A stretch of 64,000 nucleotides of DNA from Eledone cirrhosa (taxonomy: Eukaryota): positions 332,878,001-332,942,000 of the forward strand of contig OZ024741.1 in assembly GCA_964016885.1 (NCBI GenBank), in the 5' to 3' direction. Both the position numbers and the translations under genes were made by a program. Below are positions 22,954 through 46,598 of this stretch, piece by piece. Positions within the stretch are counted from its first letter, which is position 1. Each line of letters opens with the position of its first letter. Below the pieces are notes generated by a model. That model saw nothing but the letters and a program-made list of their open reading frames with translations. It ran no database searches and had not been told where the DNA came from.

Positions 22954-23325
22954 ATAGTACTTTAGCACCATGATACCAACCCCTTTACAGGGTGTACAGG
23001 ATGCATTTTCCTGGCACCAGCATCAGAGAGGTTGTTAGTTATTATCCCAACTCTGGAAGATATATGATTTTATGGATGTATGGCAGGTGTGGTGGGATTT
23101 CGTAGTGTGATGAGTAGCATTGAAGGGGTGACCACTGATTGGATGGTGAGAAAAGTTAAAGAGTGGTAGTGGAGCAGGAATGGATGTAGGTGAATTCATA
23201 GTGATGAAGAGAATATGTTTATATATATATATATAAATGGAAAATAATGAAACAAAATTTCATTTCTCACTCTTAGTACGGCTGGTACTTATGGAACATA
23301 CTTACGTATATATATATATATATAA

Positions 23326-23487
23326 AACGAAGGAAGAGTGGTAAGGGACCAGGTGGACCATAATGCACTAGAGTACTCGATACTTTGGATAGTAGAGTGG
23401 GTAATAGAAAAAGAGGGACCCCGATGACAGAAATAGCCGTCGAAATGGCTTGAGCTCTGCCGTCGGGGTCCTGACTATTTTCCTATA
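23326..23487 (+). ncRNA. HHR-like element family B, copy 1 (core partly deleted)
   Basis: GACCCC...GACAG-AAAUAG-CCGUC-GAAA-UGGC-loop-GCCG-UC^GGGGUC; homologous to 42863-43015; preceded by (TA)n. Confidence 0.55.
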
Positions 23488-23574
23488 TATATTTTCCCAT
23501 ATCTTACGTTAATTATTTTCCATTTTGACGTTATATTATGAAATACTGTTAGCTTCTTGCTCACATTAATTTTC

Positions 23575-35239: not shown

Positions 35240-38200
35240 CTAGTCACAGCAAAGAATGCAGTTAACACAGCTGACTGTATACAGCAGTCTAGTCACAGTA
35301 AAGGATGTAGTTAACACAGCTGAATATATAGCAGTCCTGTCGCAGTAAAGTATGTAGTTAACACAGTTGAATATATAGCAGTCCAGTTACAGTAAAGTAT
35401 GTAGTTAACACAGCTGAATATATAGCAGTCCAGTTACAGTAAAGTATGTAGTTAACACAGCTGAATATATAGCAGTCCAGTCACAGTAAAGTATGTAGTT
35501 AGTTTTCACAGCTGAGTATATAGCAGTCCTGTCACAGTAAAGTATGTAGTTAACACAGCTGAATATATAGCAGTCCAGTCACAGTAAATGATGTAGTTAA
35601 CACAGCTGAATATATATAGCAGTCCAGTCACAGTAAAGTATGTAGTTAACACAGCTGAATATATAGCAGTCAAGTCACAGTAAAGTATGTAGTTAGTTAT
35701 CACAGTTGAGTATATAGCAGTCCTGTCACAGTAAAGTATGTAGTTAACACAGCTGAATATATAGCAGTCCAGTCACAGTAAAGTATGTAGTTAACACAGC
35801 TGAATATATATAGCAGTCCAGTCACAGTAAAGTATGTAGTTAGTTATCACAGCTAAATATATAGCAGTCTAGTCAGAGTAAAGTATGTAGTTAACACAGC
35901 TGAATATATAGCAGTCTAGTCACAGTAAAGTATGTAGTTAACACAGCTGAATATATAGCAGTCCAGTCACAGTAAAGTATGTAGTTAACACAGCTGAATA
36001 TATAGCAGTCTAGTCACAGTAAAGTATGTAGTTAACACAGCTGAATATATAGCAGTCTAGTCACAGTAAAGTATGTAGTTAACACAGCTAAATATATAGC
36101 AGTCTAGTCACAGTAAAGTATGTAGTTAACACAGCTGAATATATAGCAGTCCAGTCACAGTAAAGTATGTAGTTAGTTATCACAGCTGAGTATATAGCAG
36201 TCCAGTCACAGTAAAGTATGTAGTTAACACAGCTGAATATATAGCAGTCTAGTCACAGTAAAGTATGTAGTTAACACAGCTGAATATATAGCAGTCCAGT
36301 CACAGTAAAGTATGTAGTTAACACAGCTGAATATATAGCAGTCTAGTCACAGTAAAGTATGTAGTTAACACAGCTGAATATATAGCAGTCCAGTTACAGT
36401 AAAGTATGTAGTTAACACAGCTGAATATATAGCAGTCTAGTCACAGTAAAGTATGTAGTTAACACAGCTGAATATATAGCAGTCCAGTCACAGTAAAGTA
36501 TGTAGATAACACAGCTGAATATATAGCAGTCCAGTGACAGTAAAGTATGTAGTTAACACAGCTGAATATATAGCAGTCTAGTCACAGTAAAGTATGTAGT
36601 TAACACAGCTGAATATATAGCAGTCCAGTCATAGTAAAGTATGTAGTTAACACAGCTGAATACATAGCAGTCCAGTCACAGTAATGTATGTAGTTAACAC
36701 AGCTGAATATATAGCAGTCCAGTCACAGTAAAGTATGTAGTTAACACAGCTGAATATATAGCAGTCCAGTCACAGTAAAGTATGTAGTTAACACAGCTGA
36801 ATATATAGCAGTCTAGTCACTGTAAAGTATGTAGTTAACACAGCTGAATAAATAGCAGTCTAGTCACAGTAAAGTATGTAGTTAACACAGCTAAATATAT
36901 AGCAGTCTAGTCACAGTAAAGTATGTAGTTAACACAGCTGAATATATAGCAGTCCAGTCACAGTAAAGTATGTAGTTAGTTATCACAGCTGAGTATATAG
37001 CAGTCCAGTCACAGTAAAGTATGTAGTTAACACAGCTGAATATATAGCAGTCTAGTCACAGTAAAGTATGTAGTTAACACAGCTGAATATATAGCAGTCC
37101 AGTCACAGTAAAGTATGTAGTTAACACAGCTGAATATATAGCAGTCCAGTCACAGTAAAGTATGTAGTTAACACAGCTGAATATATAGCAGTCCAGTTAC
37201 AGTAAAGTATGTAGTTAACACAGCTGAATATATAGCAGTCTAGTCACAGTAAAGTATGTAGTTAACACAGCTGAATATATAGCAGTCCAATCACAGTAAA
37301 GTATGTAGATAACACAGCTGAATATATAGCAGTCTAGTCACAGTAAAGTATGTAGTTAACACAGCTGAATATATAGCAGTCTAGTCACAGTAAAGTATGT
37401 AGTTAACACAGCTGAATATATAGCAGTCGAGTCACAGTAAAGTATGTAGTTAACACAGCTGAATATATAGCAGTCTAGTCACAGTAAAGTATGTAGTTAA
37501 CACAGCTGAATATATAGCAGTTCAGTCACAGTAAAGTATGTAGTTAACACAGCTGAATATATAGCAGTCCAGTCACAGTAAAGTATGTAGTTAACACAGC
37601 TGAATATATAGCAGTCTAGTCACAGTAAAGTATGTAGTTAACACAGCTGAATATATAGCAGTCCAGTCATAGTAAAGTATGTAGTTAACACAGCTGAATA
37701 CATAGCAGTCCAGTCACAGTAATGTATGTAGTTAACACAGCTGAATATATAGCAGTCTAGTCACAGTATAGTATGTAGTTAACACAGCTGAATATATAGC
37801 AGTCCAGTCACAGTAAAGTATGTAGTTAACACAGCTGAATATATAGCAGTCCAGTCACAGTAAAGTATGTAGTTAACACAGCTGAATATATAGCAGTCTA
37901 GTCACTGTAAAGTATGTAGTTAACACAGCTGAATAAATAGCAGTCTAGTCACAGTAAAGTATGTAGTTAACACAGCTGAATATATAGCAGTCCAGTCACA
38001 GTAAAGTATGTAGTTAACACAGCTGAATATATAGCAGTCTAGTCACAGTAAAGTATGTAGTTAACACAGCTGAATATATAGCAGTCCAGTCACAGTAAAG
38101 TATGTAGTTAACACAGCTGAATATATAGCAGTCTAGTCACAGTAAAGTATGTAGTTAGTTAACACAGCTGAATATATAGCAGTCACAGTAAAGTATGTAG

Positions 38201-38880
38201 TTAACACAGCTGAATATATAGCAGTCTAGTCACAGTAAAGTATGTAGTTAGTTATCACAGCTGAATATATAGCAGTCAAGTCACAGTAAATTATGTAGTT
38301 AGCACAGCTGAATATATAGCAGTCTAGTCACAGTAAAGTATGTAGTTAGTTAACACAGCTGAATATATAGCAGTCCAGTCACAGCAAAGTATGTAGTTAA
38401 CACAGCTGAATATATAGCAGTCGCGTCACAGTAAATTATGTAGTTAACACAGCTGAATATATAGCAGTCTAGTCACAGTAAATTATGTAGTTAGCACAGT
38501 TGAATATATAGCAGTCTAGTCACAGTAAAGGATCCAGTTAACACAGCTGAATATATAGCAGTCCAGTCACAGTAAAGTATGTAGTTAGTTAACAGATGAA
38601 TATATAGCAGTCCTGTCACAGTAAAGTATGTAGTTAACACAGCTGAATATATAGCAGTCCAGTCACAGTAAATTATGTAGTTAACACAGCTGAATATATA
38701 GCAGTCCAGTGACAGTAAAGTATGAAGTTAGTTAATACAGCTAAATATATAGCAGGCCAGTCAGAGTAAAATATGTTGTTAACACAGCTGAATATATAGC
38801 AGTCCAGTCACATTAAGGTAAGTAGTTAGTTAGCACAGCTGAACATATAGCAGGGCAATTAGAGTAAAGGATGTAGTTAG
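35240..38880. repeat. 47-bp minisatellite, about 77 units
   Basis: Unit AGTCACAGTAAAGTATGTAGTTAACACAGCTGAATATATAGCAGTC(C/T); homogeneous centre, diverged edges, no unique spacers. Confidence 0.97.
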
Positions 38881-39464
38881 CATGGCTCAAAGAGTTTGTT
38901 TCACAATTATTTTGTCCCTGAGTTTTATGCAGATGTGTGACAGCTTAAGCAAGTGTCATTAAAGAGGCAGATTGGACTATCTGGGGTCAAAATTTCTTGT
39001 ACATACATATATATTCACCGCTCTGACCTAACTGTAGAATCTGTGACCCCCTCCCCTCCCCTTTTCTTTCTTCCTTTGTCTAATAGTCATTGCTCTTGCC
39101 TTTCTTTACATCTCATTTATGGCATTTATAATCCTTTTCAAAGCTGATCTCTTTTTCTGTATGTTTATATAACTTTACTACAAAATAAAATTGTTTGCTT
39201 TTTTTTTTATTTCAAAGCTAAAAGATCAAAGCCTTGAGCATTAAATTGGATTGACAGAAACAGTTTAGAAGATCATCAGATGGACTCTACCTTTAATATT
39301 AAAAAAGTCAGCCTTGTTCAGTATGTAGAATCTAAATGTAGTGAATTTTACCAACCTTTTGTTTAAGTTGTGTGCATGGCTAGAACAGCTGACCACATAG
39401 GTCAGAACTGCCTGGCCAGCTTGAAAGCCAGCAAATGTCTGTGGCAGAGCAATGATGCAGTCTG

Positions 39465-41186
39465 TATGAGAGGTGGCTCCATCCTGTTGGAAGTTCGACA
39501 GATAATCATTGCCAAAATAATTAGTTGCAAAAGCAAGTATAGGCTCCAGAATACTGTTTATGTAAAATTGGGAGCTGATTTTTGTCCTATGAAAATGAGA
39601 GTAAACCTCCAAGATGATTAAACAACCCCAGACTATAATAGAAGCTGGTTTCATTGTATGGAATACAGATTTTGAGTCAACACAGATTGCTGATGCGTTT
39701 TTTTTCCAATGACAACCATTTCTTTGGTTGTCTGTCTGCTCAACAGTAAAAATCATTTCATCTGACCAGACAACCTCGCCCGCCATGCAATGTTTCATTT
39801 CTTTAAGCAAATTCTTACTTCTCTGTAGCCTTTTTTGTTTTGTCTTTTCAGAAAGGGATTGTCTTTTCTGAAGGGCGAAGGAAGACATTCCCAAGTCATC
39901 ATTGATAATCCTTCTCCATTGTCCTAGGGCTTACGCGGACTTCTTTTGCCATTTTTCTCATGCAACTTTTCGGATTTTTTTAATCCTTTTTTGAACAGCT
40001 TTAATGAGAGTAGGAATCCTTTTAGTTCACAGTCTTCCACTTCTGGGTCTATCCGACAAATCTCCTAGCACTTTAAAATGCTTCACAGTTTTCCAAACAG
40101 TAGATATAGCAACTGAAAGTAACTTTGCAATATTCGAATCTGACAGTAGAGGAGCTAGAGAATAAATTCTGGCTATGGAAACAGCAGTTGGAAGCAAGAG
40201 GACTGAGAGTGAATCTAGCTAAGACAAAAGTGTTGATGAGTAGAAAAGAGGACAAAACTCTGATTCCGTCAGGGAAATGGCCATGTTCGATATGCAGAAA
40301 AGGAACTGGCATAAATTCTATAAAATGCACACAATCCTGGGTACACAAGAGATGTAGCGGGATAGCAGGCAAACTAACAGGTAGGGAGAAATTTGTATGC
40401 AGTAGATGTACAGGGAAATTAAACAGTAGAAGTCGCATTGATAGACACATTTTTCAAATGCAGGAGGGCGCTATAGAAGTGGTGGATAGCTTCCGGTACC
40501 TAGGAGATCAGATTAGCATGGGAGGAGGGTGTTCCGAGGCCATAGTATCTAGAATAAGGACGGGTTAGAAGAAGTTTAGGGAGCTGCTTCCTCTGTTGAC
40601 GAAGAAGGGTTTCTCGCTGCGTACGAAAGGCCGGTTGTATGATGCCTGTGTGAGGCGCGCGATGCTGCATGGTAGTGAGACATGGGCAGCAACTGCAGAG
40701 GGATAGAATGTAGTGTGCGAGAGAGGAGACTGAGGTGGTATGGACATGTGATGTGCATGGAGGATGACCGATGGGTGAAGAAGTACCAGGAATTGCCAGT
40801 TGAAGGAAGATGTGGTATAGGTAGACCACGAAAAACATGGGCGGAGGTGGTGAGAACAGACCTCAGATCATTGAAGCACACGGTGGAGATAACGAGGGAC
40901 CGTGACGAGTGGAGAGATGCTGTGCTGAATAAGACCCATCCCACCCTTGCAAGCAGAGAAAAGCGGACGTAAAATGATGATGATGATGATGATGATGACC
41001 TCCTGCATGATGATCTTTGAGTAGCATTTCTCTATTGGAAGACATTTTCAAATACTTTAAGAAATTCAAACAAAGTCCAATATGTTTAATGTTTTAACCT
41101 GATAATAGAAGAAGATTAATGATGTACTTACAACATTTTAGAAAACAAATTTCAAAAATTTGCTTCCAAACTAATGCCCCACACTG
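39465..41186 (-). mobile_element. maT-like Tc1/mariner transposon, split by an RTE insertion
   Basis: TA+CAGTGTGGGGC TIR at 41186; MSSNREMLLKDHHAG | DSNIAKLL...DRPRSGR...KRLQRSK...VWSDE...IVWG...FQQDGATSHT. Confidence 0.85.
40140..40998 (+). mobile_element. RTE LINE 3' fragment nested in the maT transposase
   Basis: GLRVNLAKTKV, KWPCSIC, MLHGSETW, RLRWYGHV, GRPRKTW, (GAT)n tail; internal deletion near 40700. Confidence 0.9.
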
Positions 41187-41319: not shown

Positions 41320-41389
<70 letters not shown>

Positions 41390-41435
41390 ATTATATATAT
41401 ATATAGATGATGATTATATATATATTTATATTTAT

Positions 41436-41552
41436 ATAAATTGAAACAAAATGAAAACGAAATTTCATTTCTCACTCTTAGTATGGCACTTACTTAAATG
41501 TAAGTATGCATGTATACGTACATACATATATGTATACAGACGTACAGTAGCA

Positions 41553-41598
<46 letters not shown>

Positions 41599-42192
41599 TA
41601 CATACATATGCATACAGGTACACATACATATATGCACGTATCAGTTTAGCGGCGCTTATTGTAACGTCGCTTTGTTCGTTTGTAAACAAACTGAACAGCC
41701 TGAATTTATGCCATACGGTGTTAAGGCAACCACGTCACCTTTTTGTTCAACACTGACACAGGAACGATGTACTAGTTTCAGCACCGTTTACCCATCTGCC
41801 AGATAGTTGAACGTTCGAAAGTATATACTTTCCTTATGAAAATTAACGGCTGAGCAGCCTAATTTGCATATTGAGTGAGTTAAATCGGTCAGGCATACCG
41901 AAAACGATAAATTGAAACAAAATGATTCCTCGACTACGTAGTTTCGTGGCATAAACAAAAACAATACATCATAAAGATACAGAGTCCTTGCGAGGTCTGC
42001 CGACTTATCAAGAGGATACCTCATATATCCTGTGTCAGTGTTGAACAAAAAGGTGACGTGGTTGCCTTAACACCGTATGGCATAAATTCAGGCTGTTCAG
42101 TTTGTTTACAAACGAACAAAGCGACGTTACAATAAGCGCCGCTAAACTGATACGTGCATATATGTATGTGTACCTGTATGCATATGTATGTA

Positions 42193-42236
<44 letters not shown>

Positions 42237-42280
42237 TGCTACTGTACGTCTGTATACATATATGTATGTACGTATACATG
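41436..42280. mobile_element. Non-coding fold-back element with embedded HHR module
   Basis: Inverted arms 41509-41763 / 42028-42280; 19-bp direct repeat at 41436 and 41907; (TA)n on both sides. Confidence 0.8.
41927..42016 (-). ncRNA. Type I hammerhead ribozyme, U3-A8 core variant
   Basis: UCCUC-UUGAUAA-[GUCGGCA...UGCCAC]-GAAA-CUACGUAG-UC^GAGGA; predicted cut between 41932 and 41931. Confidence 0.8.
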
Positions 42281-42322: not shown

Positions 42323-42354
<32 letters not shown>

Positions 42355-42490
42355 AATATAAATATATATATAATCATCATTGTCATCATCATCATCATCA
42401 TCACCATTTAAAGTCCAGTTTTCCTTGTCTAACACATGCTAGCACAGAAAAATGGACTTTAAATGGTAATGATGATATATACACACACAC

Positions 42491-42522
<32 letters not shown>

Positions 42523-42862
42523 CTGTGTCTGTGTGTATCCCAGGTTCAATCAGGGGTAACCACAGCAAGTAAGGTTCTGAATACATAGTAGAGTATATAA
42601 TGTTTAATATTGAAATGGCTTCTACAGGACTAGAACTGTTTCATTCGAAGGTTCCTTTGAACAGTTATATATATATCCATATATATCATCATTTTATGTC
42701 CGCTTTTCCCTGCTTGCATATGATAAAGTTATATCTGTAAAAATATAGAGTGTATAACTGAGACTACACCACCGTATATACATATATCTAATATGTAGGT
42801 ATATAAACATGCAAGAAAATACAAATTTCCTTATGAATTGAAATTTATATATATATATATAT

Positions 42863-43015
42863 AACGAAGGAAATGTGGTAAGGAACCAGGTGGACCATAA
42901 CGCACCAAAGTACTCAATACTTAGGGTAGTAGAGTGGGTAATAGGAACAAGTAAGACCCAGAATTAGCCGTCGAAACGGCTTGAGCTCAGCCATCGGGGT
43001 CTTACTTGTTCCTAT
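42863..43015 (+). ncRNA. HHR-like element family B, copy 2 (core deleted)
   Basis: 19-bp perfect stem 42941-42959 / 42997-43015 enclosing CCGUC-GAAA-CGGC-loop-GCCA-UC; (TA)n flanks. Confidence 0.55.
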
Positions 43016-43106
43016 ATATATATATATATATATACATTATGAAGAGAGAAGAAACATTTAGATATAATTAGTAATAAAATGTATCATACCTAAACTGCTC
43101 CTAGAT

Positions 43107-43196
43107 TCCTCGACTACGTAGTTTCGTGGCATAAACAAAAACAATACATCATAAAGATATAGAGTCCTTGCGAGGTCTGCCGACTTATCAAGAGGA
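43107..43196 (-). ncRNA. Type I hammerhead ribozyme, U3-A8 core variant (intact)
   Basis: Stem I UCCUC/GAGGA, core UUGAUAA (43191-43185), GAAA (43125-43122), palindromic stem III ACUACGUAGU, GUC triplet; cut 43112/43111. Confidence 0.82.
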
Positions 43197-43699
43197 TACC
43201 TCATTTTACTAGTCTCAAGAACGCGTCTACACGACGTGAGAAAGAATCCCAAAAGGCGGAGGGGGAGATAGTCACGCGATATAACGGTCGAGAAACAGAG
43301 CTAAGCCTCTTATAACCCTGAAGAAAATACCACGGAGGCGGAGGGGGTATTTATATCGAAGCCGTAGAAGAGGTGGTGAAGGAGGCGAGAAGTATGAGTA
43401 ATGGAAGCTTTCCAGCAGTCCCCACACTTCAAAGATTGCTCGACCAGAGGGAGTTATTAACAATATATTTAGAAACACACAGATACATGAGGACACACAC
43501 ATATACATGAATGCATCCGCACCCAACCGTGAGTTAAGGGTGCCAACTTCACCGATGTTGCTCAATGAATGACTGGGACAGACCAATCCGGTTGAACTAG
43601 ACTGAACCAGTATCAGAGTTAAAAATACATTATGAAGAGAGAAGAAACATTTAGATATAATTAGTAATAAAATGTATCATACCTAAACTGCTCCTAGAT

Positions 43700-43789
43700 T
43701 CCTCGACTACGTAGTTTTGTGGCATAAACAAAAACAATACATCATAAAGATATAGAGTCCTTGCGAGGTCTGCCGACTTATCAAGAGGA
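43700..43789 (-). ncRNA. Same HHR with G12A (predicted inactive)
   Basis: Identical to 43107-43196 except C>T at 43718, which turns GAAA into AAAA. Confidence 0.75.
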
Positions 43790-43936
43790 TACCTCATTTT
43801 ACTAGTCTCAAGAACGTGTCTTCACGACGTGAGAAAGAATCCCAAAAGGCGGAGGGGGAGATAGTCACGCGATATAACGGTCGAGAAACAGAGCTAAGCC
43901 TCTTATAACCCCGAAGAAAATACCACGGAGTATATA

Positions 43937-46021: not shown

Positions 46022-46598
46022 TGAGCAGGGTGCTCCGAGGCCATAGTATCTAGAATAAGGATAGGTTGGAAGAAGTTTAGAGGGCTGCTTCCTCTGTTGA
46101 CAAAGAAGGGTTTCTCCCTACAAACGAAAGGCTGGTTATATGATGCCTGTGTGAGATGTGCAATGCTGCATGGTAGTGAGACATGGGCAGCAACAGCGGA
46201 GAATATGCGGCGGCTGGAGAGAAATGAAGCAAGCATGCTTCGTTGGCTGTGCAATGTCAATGTGCATGAACGACCAGGCATAGATGAGGTGGGAGAGAAA
46301 CTGTGTATAAGAGGGATAAGCTGTAGTGTGCGGAAGAGAAGACTACGTTGGTATGGACATGTGATGCACATGGAGGATGATCTCTGGGTAAAGAAGTGCC
46401 AAGAAATCCCAGTAGAAGGAAGACACAGTAGAGGTAGACCACGAAAAACATGGGCAGAGGTGGTGAGAGCTGATCTCAGATTGCTGAAGCTCACGGAGGA
46501 GATGACGAGGGACCATGACAAATAGAGAAATGCTGTGCTGAATAGGACCTGTCCAACCCTTGCAAGCAGGGAAAAGCAGACATAAAATGATGATGATC
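46022..46598 (+). mobile_element. RTE LINE 3' fragment (same subfamily as 40140)
   Basis: MLHGSETW...RRLERNEASMLRW...RLRWYGHV...GRPRKTW, tail CCCTTGCAAGCAGGGAAAAGCAGACATAAAATGATGATG. Confidence 0.9.

What the first reader, a model, noticed from the sequence alone, without database searches (positions are those of the whole stretch)
41436..42280. Chimeric fold-back: a 471-nt unit that restarts, switches to the HHR module of another element, then inverts
Seen: the unit starts ATAAATTGAAACAAAATGA (41436), and the same 19-mer recurs at 41907 (period 471). A 101-bp block follows (41924-42024) that is near-identical to 43104-43204 and is almost exactly the ribozyme. Then comes a ~255-bp inverted copy of 41509-41763. 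Inference: terminal redundancy suggests a tandem or circular RNA template, and the junctions suggest RT template jumps between two different small RNAs, i.e. ribozyme module swapping. Inverted partial copies are typical of Penelope insertions.
Basis: partly seen in the sequence, partly recalled or inferred. Interest (0 to 1): 0.75.

Follow-up and report, generated by a model that had tools for sequence, protein, structure and literature searches.

The report
One-off retrozyme insertion scar, borrowed hammerhead
This is one copy of a very common non-coding jumping repeat, inserted as two back-to-back arms in the Penelope manner, with a 101-base piece of a second repeat's predicted self-cutting RNA at the joint; the piece was likely copied from the neighbouring DNA during that one insertion, and the join occurs only once in this genome.

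Summary
All the stated sequence features are real. The 471-nt unit belongs to a hammerhead-bearing tandem repeat family (A, 8,500 exact motif matches); the 101-bp module belongs to a second family (B, about 800). Longer-than-unit arms and fold-backs are routine in both: two-armed insertions start at two fixed sites, as Penelope-like elements do. What is special is confined to this locus. The A|B join occurs once in the genome, none of 90 other head-to-head joints holds a foreign piece, and this A copy alone has lost its own ribozyme core. The left junction also carries a perfect 32-nt inverted copy of right-flank DNA, so local DNA was used as a template here, and a B copy lies 0.8 kb along that same flank. 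Best reading: a one-off, error-prone insertion with a locally templated filler (0.58). A reverse-transcriptase jump onto B RNA from elsewhere remains possible (0.28), helped by the piece's ends sitting at the ribozyme's stem base. No propagated module swap was found; the assembly could not be checked with reads. The scan had already described family B and similar one-off captures on other DNA.

The parts
41320..41384 (.). (TA)n target run, left side
   Evidence: sequence; both families sit in (TA)n at most loci shown
41385..41400 (+). shorter, partial inverted copy of the same right-flank motif
41407..41438 (+). perfect 32-nt inverted copy of right-flank DNA 42349-42380 (last 3 nt shared with the arm start)
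   Evidence: 32/32 match; motif absent from the rest of the window and from 258 other loci, 1.09 Mb
41436..41925 (-). left arm: family A retrozyme-type unit, 471 nt plus 19 nt of the next unit; cDNA starts at family start site 1; inferred RNA sense is the minus strand
41763..41788 (-). remnant of family A's own type I hammerhead: stems I and III kept, core CUGAUGA and stem II lost by a 19-bp deletion at 41780/41781 between short TCA repeats
   Evidence: 1 match with the deletion against 8,500 in all
41924..42024 (-). 101-bp filler: predicted hammerhead domain of family B (U3-A8 core, long stem II, palindromic stem III), spanning its cut site; 2-nt microhomology (GA) with the left arm
42025..42027 (.). 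3 extra bases (ATA) at the B|A joint
42028..42280 (+). right arm: inverted, 5'-truncated family A copy; outer end at unit position 74, near start site 2 (about 56-79 in other copies); inner end 6 nt short of A's cut site
42349..42380 (+). right-flank source of the inverted piece at the left junction; continues into a (CAT)n run
43032..43930 (-). neighbouring one-armed family B insertion, 1.5 units of 593 nt; its first hammerhead (43104-43204) is the likely template of the filler

Best explanation
The stretch is a single two-armed insertion of a non-coding hammerhead repeat (family A), likely written from both sides of a break in a TA run by a Penelope-type reverse transcriptase, and its 101-bp middle piece was likely copied from the family B element 0.8 kb along the right flank before the two arms were joined. 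Shown: the piece map, both families' copy numbers, the two fixed start sites, the uniqueness of the join and of the deletion, and the inverted copy of right-flank DNA at the left junction. Inferred steps: (1) a GIY-YIG endonuclease cuts both strands in (TA)n; (2) the left end copies about 30 nt of right-flank DNA twice, then primes A RNA at site 1; (3) synthesis skips the stem II hairpin across a 3-nt repeat (the deletion) and runs 19 nt into the next unit; (4) the cDNA end pairs by 2 nt with the exposed minus strand of the neighbouring B copy (or with its nascent transcript) and copies 100 nt; (5) it is end-joined, with 3 extra bases, to the second cDNA primed near site 2. The polymerase in steps 2 and 4 (the RT itself or Pol theta) is not identified. 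The product is probably a dead end.
For: Two-armed insertions pair start site 1 with start site 2 in 22 of 29 A and 46 of 53 B cases; this locus fits. Published Penelope features match: partial tandems with an inverted 5'-truncated copy and microsatellite bias (PMC8557442, passages); both strands cut and extended, two internal start sites, AT-rich targets (PMC11167929). The genome holds RT plus GIY-YIG ORFs. The A|B join has 1 match genome-wide at up to 1 mismatch. Local templating in this event: 32/32 inverted flank copy, motif in 0 of 258 other loci. Inverted flank copies also occur at 3 of 153 other insertion blocks (L125, L129, L159), whereas foreign-family fillers occur at 0 of 90 other joints and at none of 16 other A-near-B matches from six genome-wide patterns. 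A young B copy beside an A locus is rare (0 of 48 A loci; young A beside 1 of 96 B loci), yet the one filler found has one. The neighbour looks slightly older than the arms: 5 differences from the family majority in 899 nt against 0 private ones in 474 nt (weak). L1 insertions with pieces templated from DNA near the site are published (PMC11702581, passages).
Against: No private marker ties the filler to the neighbour: 43104-43204 equals the family majority, and the filler differs from it at one base. That base (C) is in 3 of 800 exact matches, the filler included, and is mixed within single tandem arrays, so it looks like recurrent mutation and settles nothing. Both filler ends lie within 3 nt of the stem I base, chance about 0.0003 under a uniform model chosen after the fact; a trimmed, folded RNA explains this more naturally. 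The flank copies seen elsewhere come from within about 200 nt of the break, not 0.8 kb, and Pol theta inserts are generally under 25 bp (PMC12426944, passages). One direct head-to-head join of an A-relative arm and a B arm exists (L255), which may show two RNAs at one break. The 32-nt inverted match could predate the insertion. The autonomous partner was not identified.
Confidence: 0.58

Rival explanations
1. The reverse transcriptase jumped from A RNA onto a B RNA made elsewhere, perhaps a nuclease-trimmed folded hammerhead domain or a circle, copied it to its end, added 3 bases and was joined to the second arm. The B neighbour is coincidence or a product of the same burst.
For: Filler ends at the stem I base. 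The filler is co-directional with the left arm, as L1 template-switch chimeras are (PMC13174262, passages). About 10 of roughly 105 B loci have a piece starting at an internal position, so the enzyme can enter B RNA internally (read by eye). L255 joins two families head to head.
Against: No second B filler in 90 joints or in six genome-wide patterns. No other B fragment starting beside stem I (1 hit, a false positive; I estimate the pattern sees about a quarter of such cases, and it misses this one). Orientation cannot discriminate, because a two-armed insertion is co-directional with either strand. It needs a neighbour coincidence of about 1% or less (my estimate). Arm ends do not cluster at cut sites.
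Confidence: 0.28
2. Assembly or library artefact: a fold-back read chimera or a mis-join between the A locus and the B copy 1.1 kb away.
For: No public run tested bridges the join, but none is known to be the same individual. The pieces are all local.
Against: The arms differ by a substitution and a TA unit, and the filler differs from both neighbours. The arms start at the family's own sites. Fold-backs with the same geometry occur at 90 other joints. The junctions show microhomology and a 3-nt filler, as 14 of the 90 other joints have 1-9 nt fillers.
Confidence: 0.07
3. A composite RNA (ribozyme-less A unit plus B hammerhead) existed as a template and was retrotransposed, i.e. a true ribozyme replacement.
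For: The one A copy among 8,500 matches that lost its core is also the one that gained a foreign hammerhead, on the same strand. Other deletions of 8 nt or more were seen in 0 of 123 other A units and 1 of 95 B units.
Against: No source copy with the deletion or the join. After the module the sequence inverts and does not resume A in register. One hammerhead cannot release a monomer, and such palindromic-stem-III motifs are thought to need a second copy (PMC4209133, passages). Neither joint is at a cut site, so ligation of cleaved RNAs is unlikely.
Confidence: 0.04

Closest known systems
Metazoan non-LTR retrozymes (PMC7229834, passages; bioRxiv 10.64898/2026.07.22.740005, parts 1-3 of 5)
   Same: Non-coding tandem units of a few hundred bases, one type I hammerhead per unit, thousands of copies, in a genome with Penelope-like elements.
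   Different: Expression, self-cleavage and circles were not tested here. This copy lacks its own core and is a chimera; the parts read do not describe insertion junctions.
EN+ Penelope-like element insertions (PMC8557442, passages; PAc in vitro, PMC11167929, parts 1-2 of 4)
   Same: Partial tandem, inverted 5'-truncated second arm, two start sites giving a one-sided tail, AT-rich microsatellite targets, ends not at the ribozyme cut site.
   Different: No ORF; the two start sites are about 60 nt (A) and 162 nt (B) apart against a 30-40 bp tail; a foreign piece sits at the joint.
Non-canonical L1 insertions with a third piece or locally templated DNA (PMC11702581, passages) and RNA/L1 chimeras (PMC13174262, passages)
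   Same: A third segment between two inverted cDNAs; pieces copied from DNA near the site; 2-nt microhomology.
   Different: A different enzyme class; no poly(A) or target-site duplication identified here; the captured piece is a whole ribozyme domain.
Pol theta templated insertions (PMC12426944, passages)
   Same: Iterated copies of break-flanking DNA, minimal microhomology, patchwork of pieces.
   Different: The filler (101 bp, source 0.8 kb away) is longer and farther than typical.

Membership tests
Non-LTR retrozyme (families A and B) | Type I hammerhead in each tandem unit | tested here: met
   A: 191 of 308 aligned motifs share one sequence, with a two-sided change in stem I among the variants. 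B: descriptor hit, U3-A8 core, a known natural covariation (PMC3088659, passages).
Non-LTR retrozyme (families A and B) | Tandem, dispersed, non-coding units of a few hundred bases | tested here: met
   Periods of about 470 and 593 nt, arrays up to 17 A units. No ORF recognised in the units by reading; no protein search was run on them.
Non-LTR retrozyme (families A and B) | Transcription, self-cleavage and circular RNA | not testable with these tools
   No RNA holder was listed. Predicted stem I pairing is low in both native and chimeric contexts, so folding says nothing.
Active retrozyme (this locus) | [quoted passage not shown] | tested here: not met
   Own core deleted; one foreign motif only.
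Penelope-type insertion | Partial tandem with an inverted 5'-truncated copy | tested here: met
   This locus and 90 other joints.
Penelope-type insertion | Two fixed start sites (tail at one end) | tested here: met
   Outer ends cluster at A 1 and about 60, B 1 and 424-432; paired one each in 68 of 82 two-armed insertions.
Penelope-type insertion | An RT-GIY-YIG partner sharing the terminal repeat | tested here: inconclusive
   Such ORFs exist, but none of 50 loci checked (of 150 scored, 10,597 candidates) has A or B as its terminal repeat.
RT template-switch chimera between two RNAs | Captured piece traceable to an RNA source rather than to local DNA | tested here: inconclusive
   No diagnostic variant; local templating visible at the same site.
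Propagated chimeric element | The join recurs at other loci | tested here: not met
   1 match genome-wide; deletion also single.

The most novel reading that the evidence does not exclude
The Penelope enzyme jumps between the RNAs of unrelated retrozyme families and picks up the folded hammerhead domain as a unit, so ribozymes can move between families; here a copy that had just lost its own ribozyme gained another, and L255 records two families written into one break.
Probability: 0.2. Interest if true: 0.55.

Novelty: new member of a known kind. Interest (0 to 1): 0.27.

Why it matters
How Penelope-like elements build their tandem and inverted ends is still described as undefined (PMC8557442). 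This locus and its relatives show that the two arms start at two different fixed sites and that the ends copy local DNA before they are joined, which can be tested with the existing in vitro system. As a single dead copy the chimera itself matters little. It would matter more if such captures proved to come from RNA and to move whole ribozymes between families.

Tried and rejected
Rfam at gathering score: no match. The one-base difference as a marker of a remote source: rejected as recurrent mutation. Ligation of self-cleaved RNAs: joints are 6-8 nt off the cut sites. Templates ending at the cut site: 0 of 70 A ends at unit 316-325, 3 of 157 B ends at 80-82, no clear peak (the A cluster at 335-341 is partly an ascertainment effect). 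A hot spot of B fragments beginning at stem I: none found, at low sensitivity. Public runs: no RNA holder listed; contigs of X1-X3, X13 and X7 show the families in their ordinary context and none of the listed pieces bridges the join; X4 and X24 laid nothing; this is no test of the assembly. Folding as a test of filler activity: uninformative. Partner search: not found. One search was mis-stranded and is not used. Seven literature searches ran; their listings showed no paper on chimeras between animal retrozyme families. Most listed papers were not opened and no supplements were read, so this is not proof of absence.

Full report
Observation. Every coordinate holds. The 19-mer is at 41436 and 41907 only; the module matches 43104-43204 at 99.0% and 43697-43797 at 98.0%; the inverted arm matches 41509-41763 with one mismatch and one missing TA. 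The left joint shares 2 nt (GA) and the right joint has 3 extra bases.

The two families. The 471-nt unit (A) is a dispersed tandem repeat: 49 matches in a capped DNA search and 8,500 exact matches to a motif pair flanking its ribozyme. It carries a minimal type I hammerhead on the minus strand with a 7-bp stem I, a CUGAUGA core and a palindromic stem III; stem I shows a two-sided change among variants. The 593-nt unit (B) has 797 exact matches to a 30-mer, and its best-scoring copies are 98-100% identical. Its hammerhead has a U3-A8 core, a covariation already reported in nature (PMC3088659, passages). Both fit the description of non-LTR retrozymes (PMC7229834, passages; bioRxiv 10.64898/2026.07.22.740005, parts 1-3 of 5). 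Expression and cleavage were not testable. Earlier scan notes on this genome describe a 591-nt U3-A8 family with two fixed start sites; I had the two-armed reading before that look-up and tested the start sites myself.

Restart and fold-back are ordinary. I mapped the 196 loci then held, many overlapping. Outer ends cluster at two positions per family, and two-armed insertions use one of each in 22 of 29 A and 46 of 53 B cases. Inner ends are spread along the unit with no clear peak at the cut sites. This matches Penelope-like elements: partial tandems with an inverted truncated copy and microsatellite bias (PMC8557442, passages), and in vitro cutting and extension of both strands from two internal start sites on mostly uncleaved RNA (PMC11167929, parts 1-2 of 4). 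The genome holds ORFs of 844-1096 aa with RT and GIY-YIG matches. None of the 50 loci checked has A or B as its terminal repeat, so the partner is inferred. Arms longer than one unit fit a tandem or a circular template; I did not separate the two.

What is special here. The A|B join is single in 3.0 Gb. Of 90 other head-to-head joints (34 A-A, 56 B-B), 60 overlap, 11 are blunt, 14 have 1-9 extra bases and 5 have 10-30; none holds another family. Six genome-wide patterns for an A motif within 400-450 nt of a B motif gave 16 other matches. Fifteen are separate B insertions in or near TA runs at A copies; two of these are ends of one insertion and two look like a duplicated locus. One, L255, is a direct head-to-head join of an A-relative arm and a B arm, both from site 1; it may be one event with two RNAs or a later B insertion. 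These patterns see only fillers that contain the chosen 15-mers, perhaps a fifth by my estimate. This A copy is also the only one of the 8,500 matches lacking the ribozyme core; other deletions of 8 nt or more were rare.

Where the filler came from. The single base by which it differs from its neighbours first suggested a remote source, since two distant copies match it fully. But that allele is 3 of 800 and is mixed within arrays, so it carries no information. For a local source: young B lies beside 0 of 48 A loci and young A beside 1 of 96 B loci, yet the only filler found has a B copy 0.8 kb beyond the right arm. The left junction holds a 32/32 inverted copy of right-flank DNA plus a partial second copy, a motif found in none of 258 other loci. 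Similar inverted flank copies occur at 3 of 153 other insertion blocks. L1 insertions with locally templated DNA and with a third piece between inverted arms are published (PMC11702581, passages). For an RNA source: both ends of the filler sit within 3 nt of the stem I base (about 0.0003 by a post hoc uniform model), and the source is farther away than in the other flank copies. A nascent transcript of the neighbour would satisfy both lines and is counted under the local reading.

Function. The locus has one intact hammerhead motif inside the 264-nt loop of a roughly 255-bp inverted repeat. It cannot release a unit-length RNA, and the filler is not followed by A in register, so it is not the footprint of a chimeric circle. 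The loss of one ribozyme and gain of another is most simply two outcomes of one error-prone synthesis; that is inference.

Assembly. No run known to be the same individual was available. Contigs from other samples show the families only in their normal context, which is no test. Differences between the arms and the family-typical ends argue against an artefact.

Verdict. A real, single-copy insertion scar in a known kind of element. Local templating 0.58, jump to remote B RNA 0.28, artefact 0.07, propagated swap 0.04. Earlier scan notes report other one-off captures at such joints in this genome; I did not check them. Interest 0.27.

Noticed in passing
L255 (G000:C4:217748854-217752127), joint near locus 1670-1674: An arm of an A-related subfamily and a B arm meet head to head with a few shared bases and no TA run, both starting at site 1; a candidate for two different RNAs copied at one break.
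   Followed up: partly
L125:2732-2844, L129 and L159 flanks: Inverted copies of 40-113 nt of flanking DNA beside A or B insertions; 113 nt at 100% in L125.
   Followed up: partly
window 42846-43021 and 23203-23492: A third repeat family with a strong hairpin (z about -6 to -8); the 23.2-kb copy starts with a tail 77% similar to family A's. It often lies near A and B copies.
   Followed up: partly
window about 3649 and 3780: Two head-to-head hammerhead-like motifs, the same as those beside RT-GIY-YIG ORFs in L231, L232 and L241: a probable two-armed Penelope-type end.
   Followed up: no
window 40110-41000 and 46023-46597: Two related, broken LINE-like coding fragments, 84-89% alike, the first ending in a (GAT)n run; the RTE-type label is recalled, not searched.
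   Followed up: no
window 39265-39930 (minus): A 221-aa open frame that reads like a Tc1/mariner-type transposase fragment (label recalled, not searched).
   Followed up: no
window 38000-38890: A 47-nt minisatellite array.
   Followed up: no
L229:6510-7419: A 459-nt tandem unit with a long-stem-II hammerhead downstream of an 844-aa RT ORF; another retrozyme-like family or a terminal repeat.
   Followed up: no
runs X4-X20: Runs under many different organism codes hold 0.2-0.5 of the stretch's words; X7 has one contig matching 36 nt of family A exactly, X4 laid nothing. A wide spread of family A is possible but untested.
   Followed up: partly
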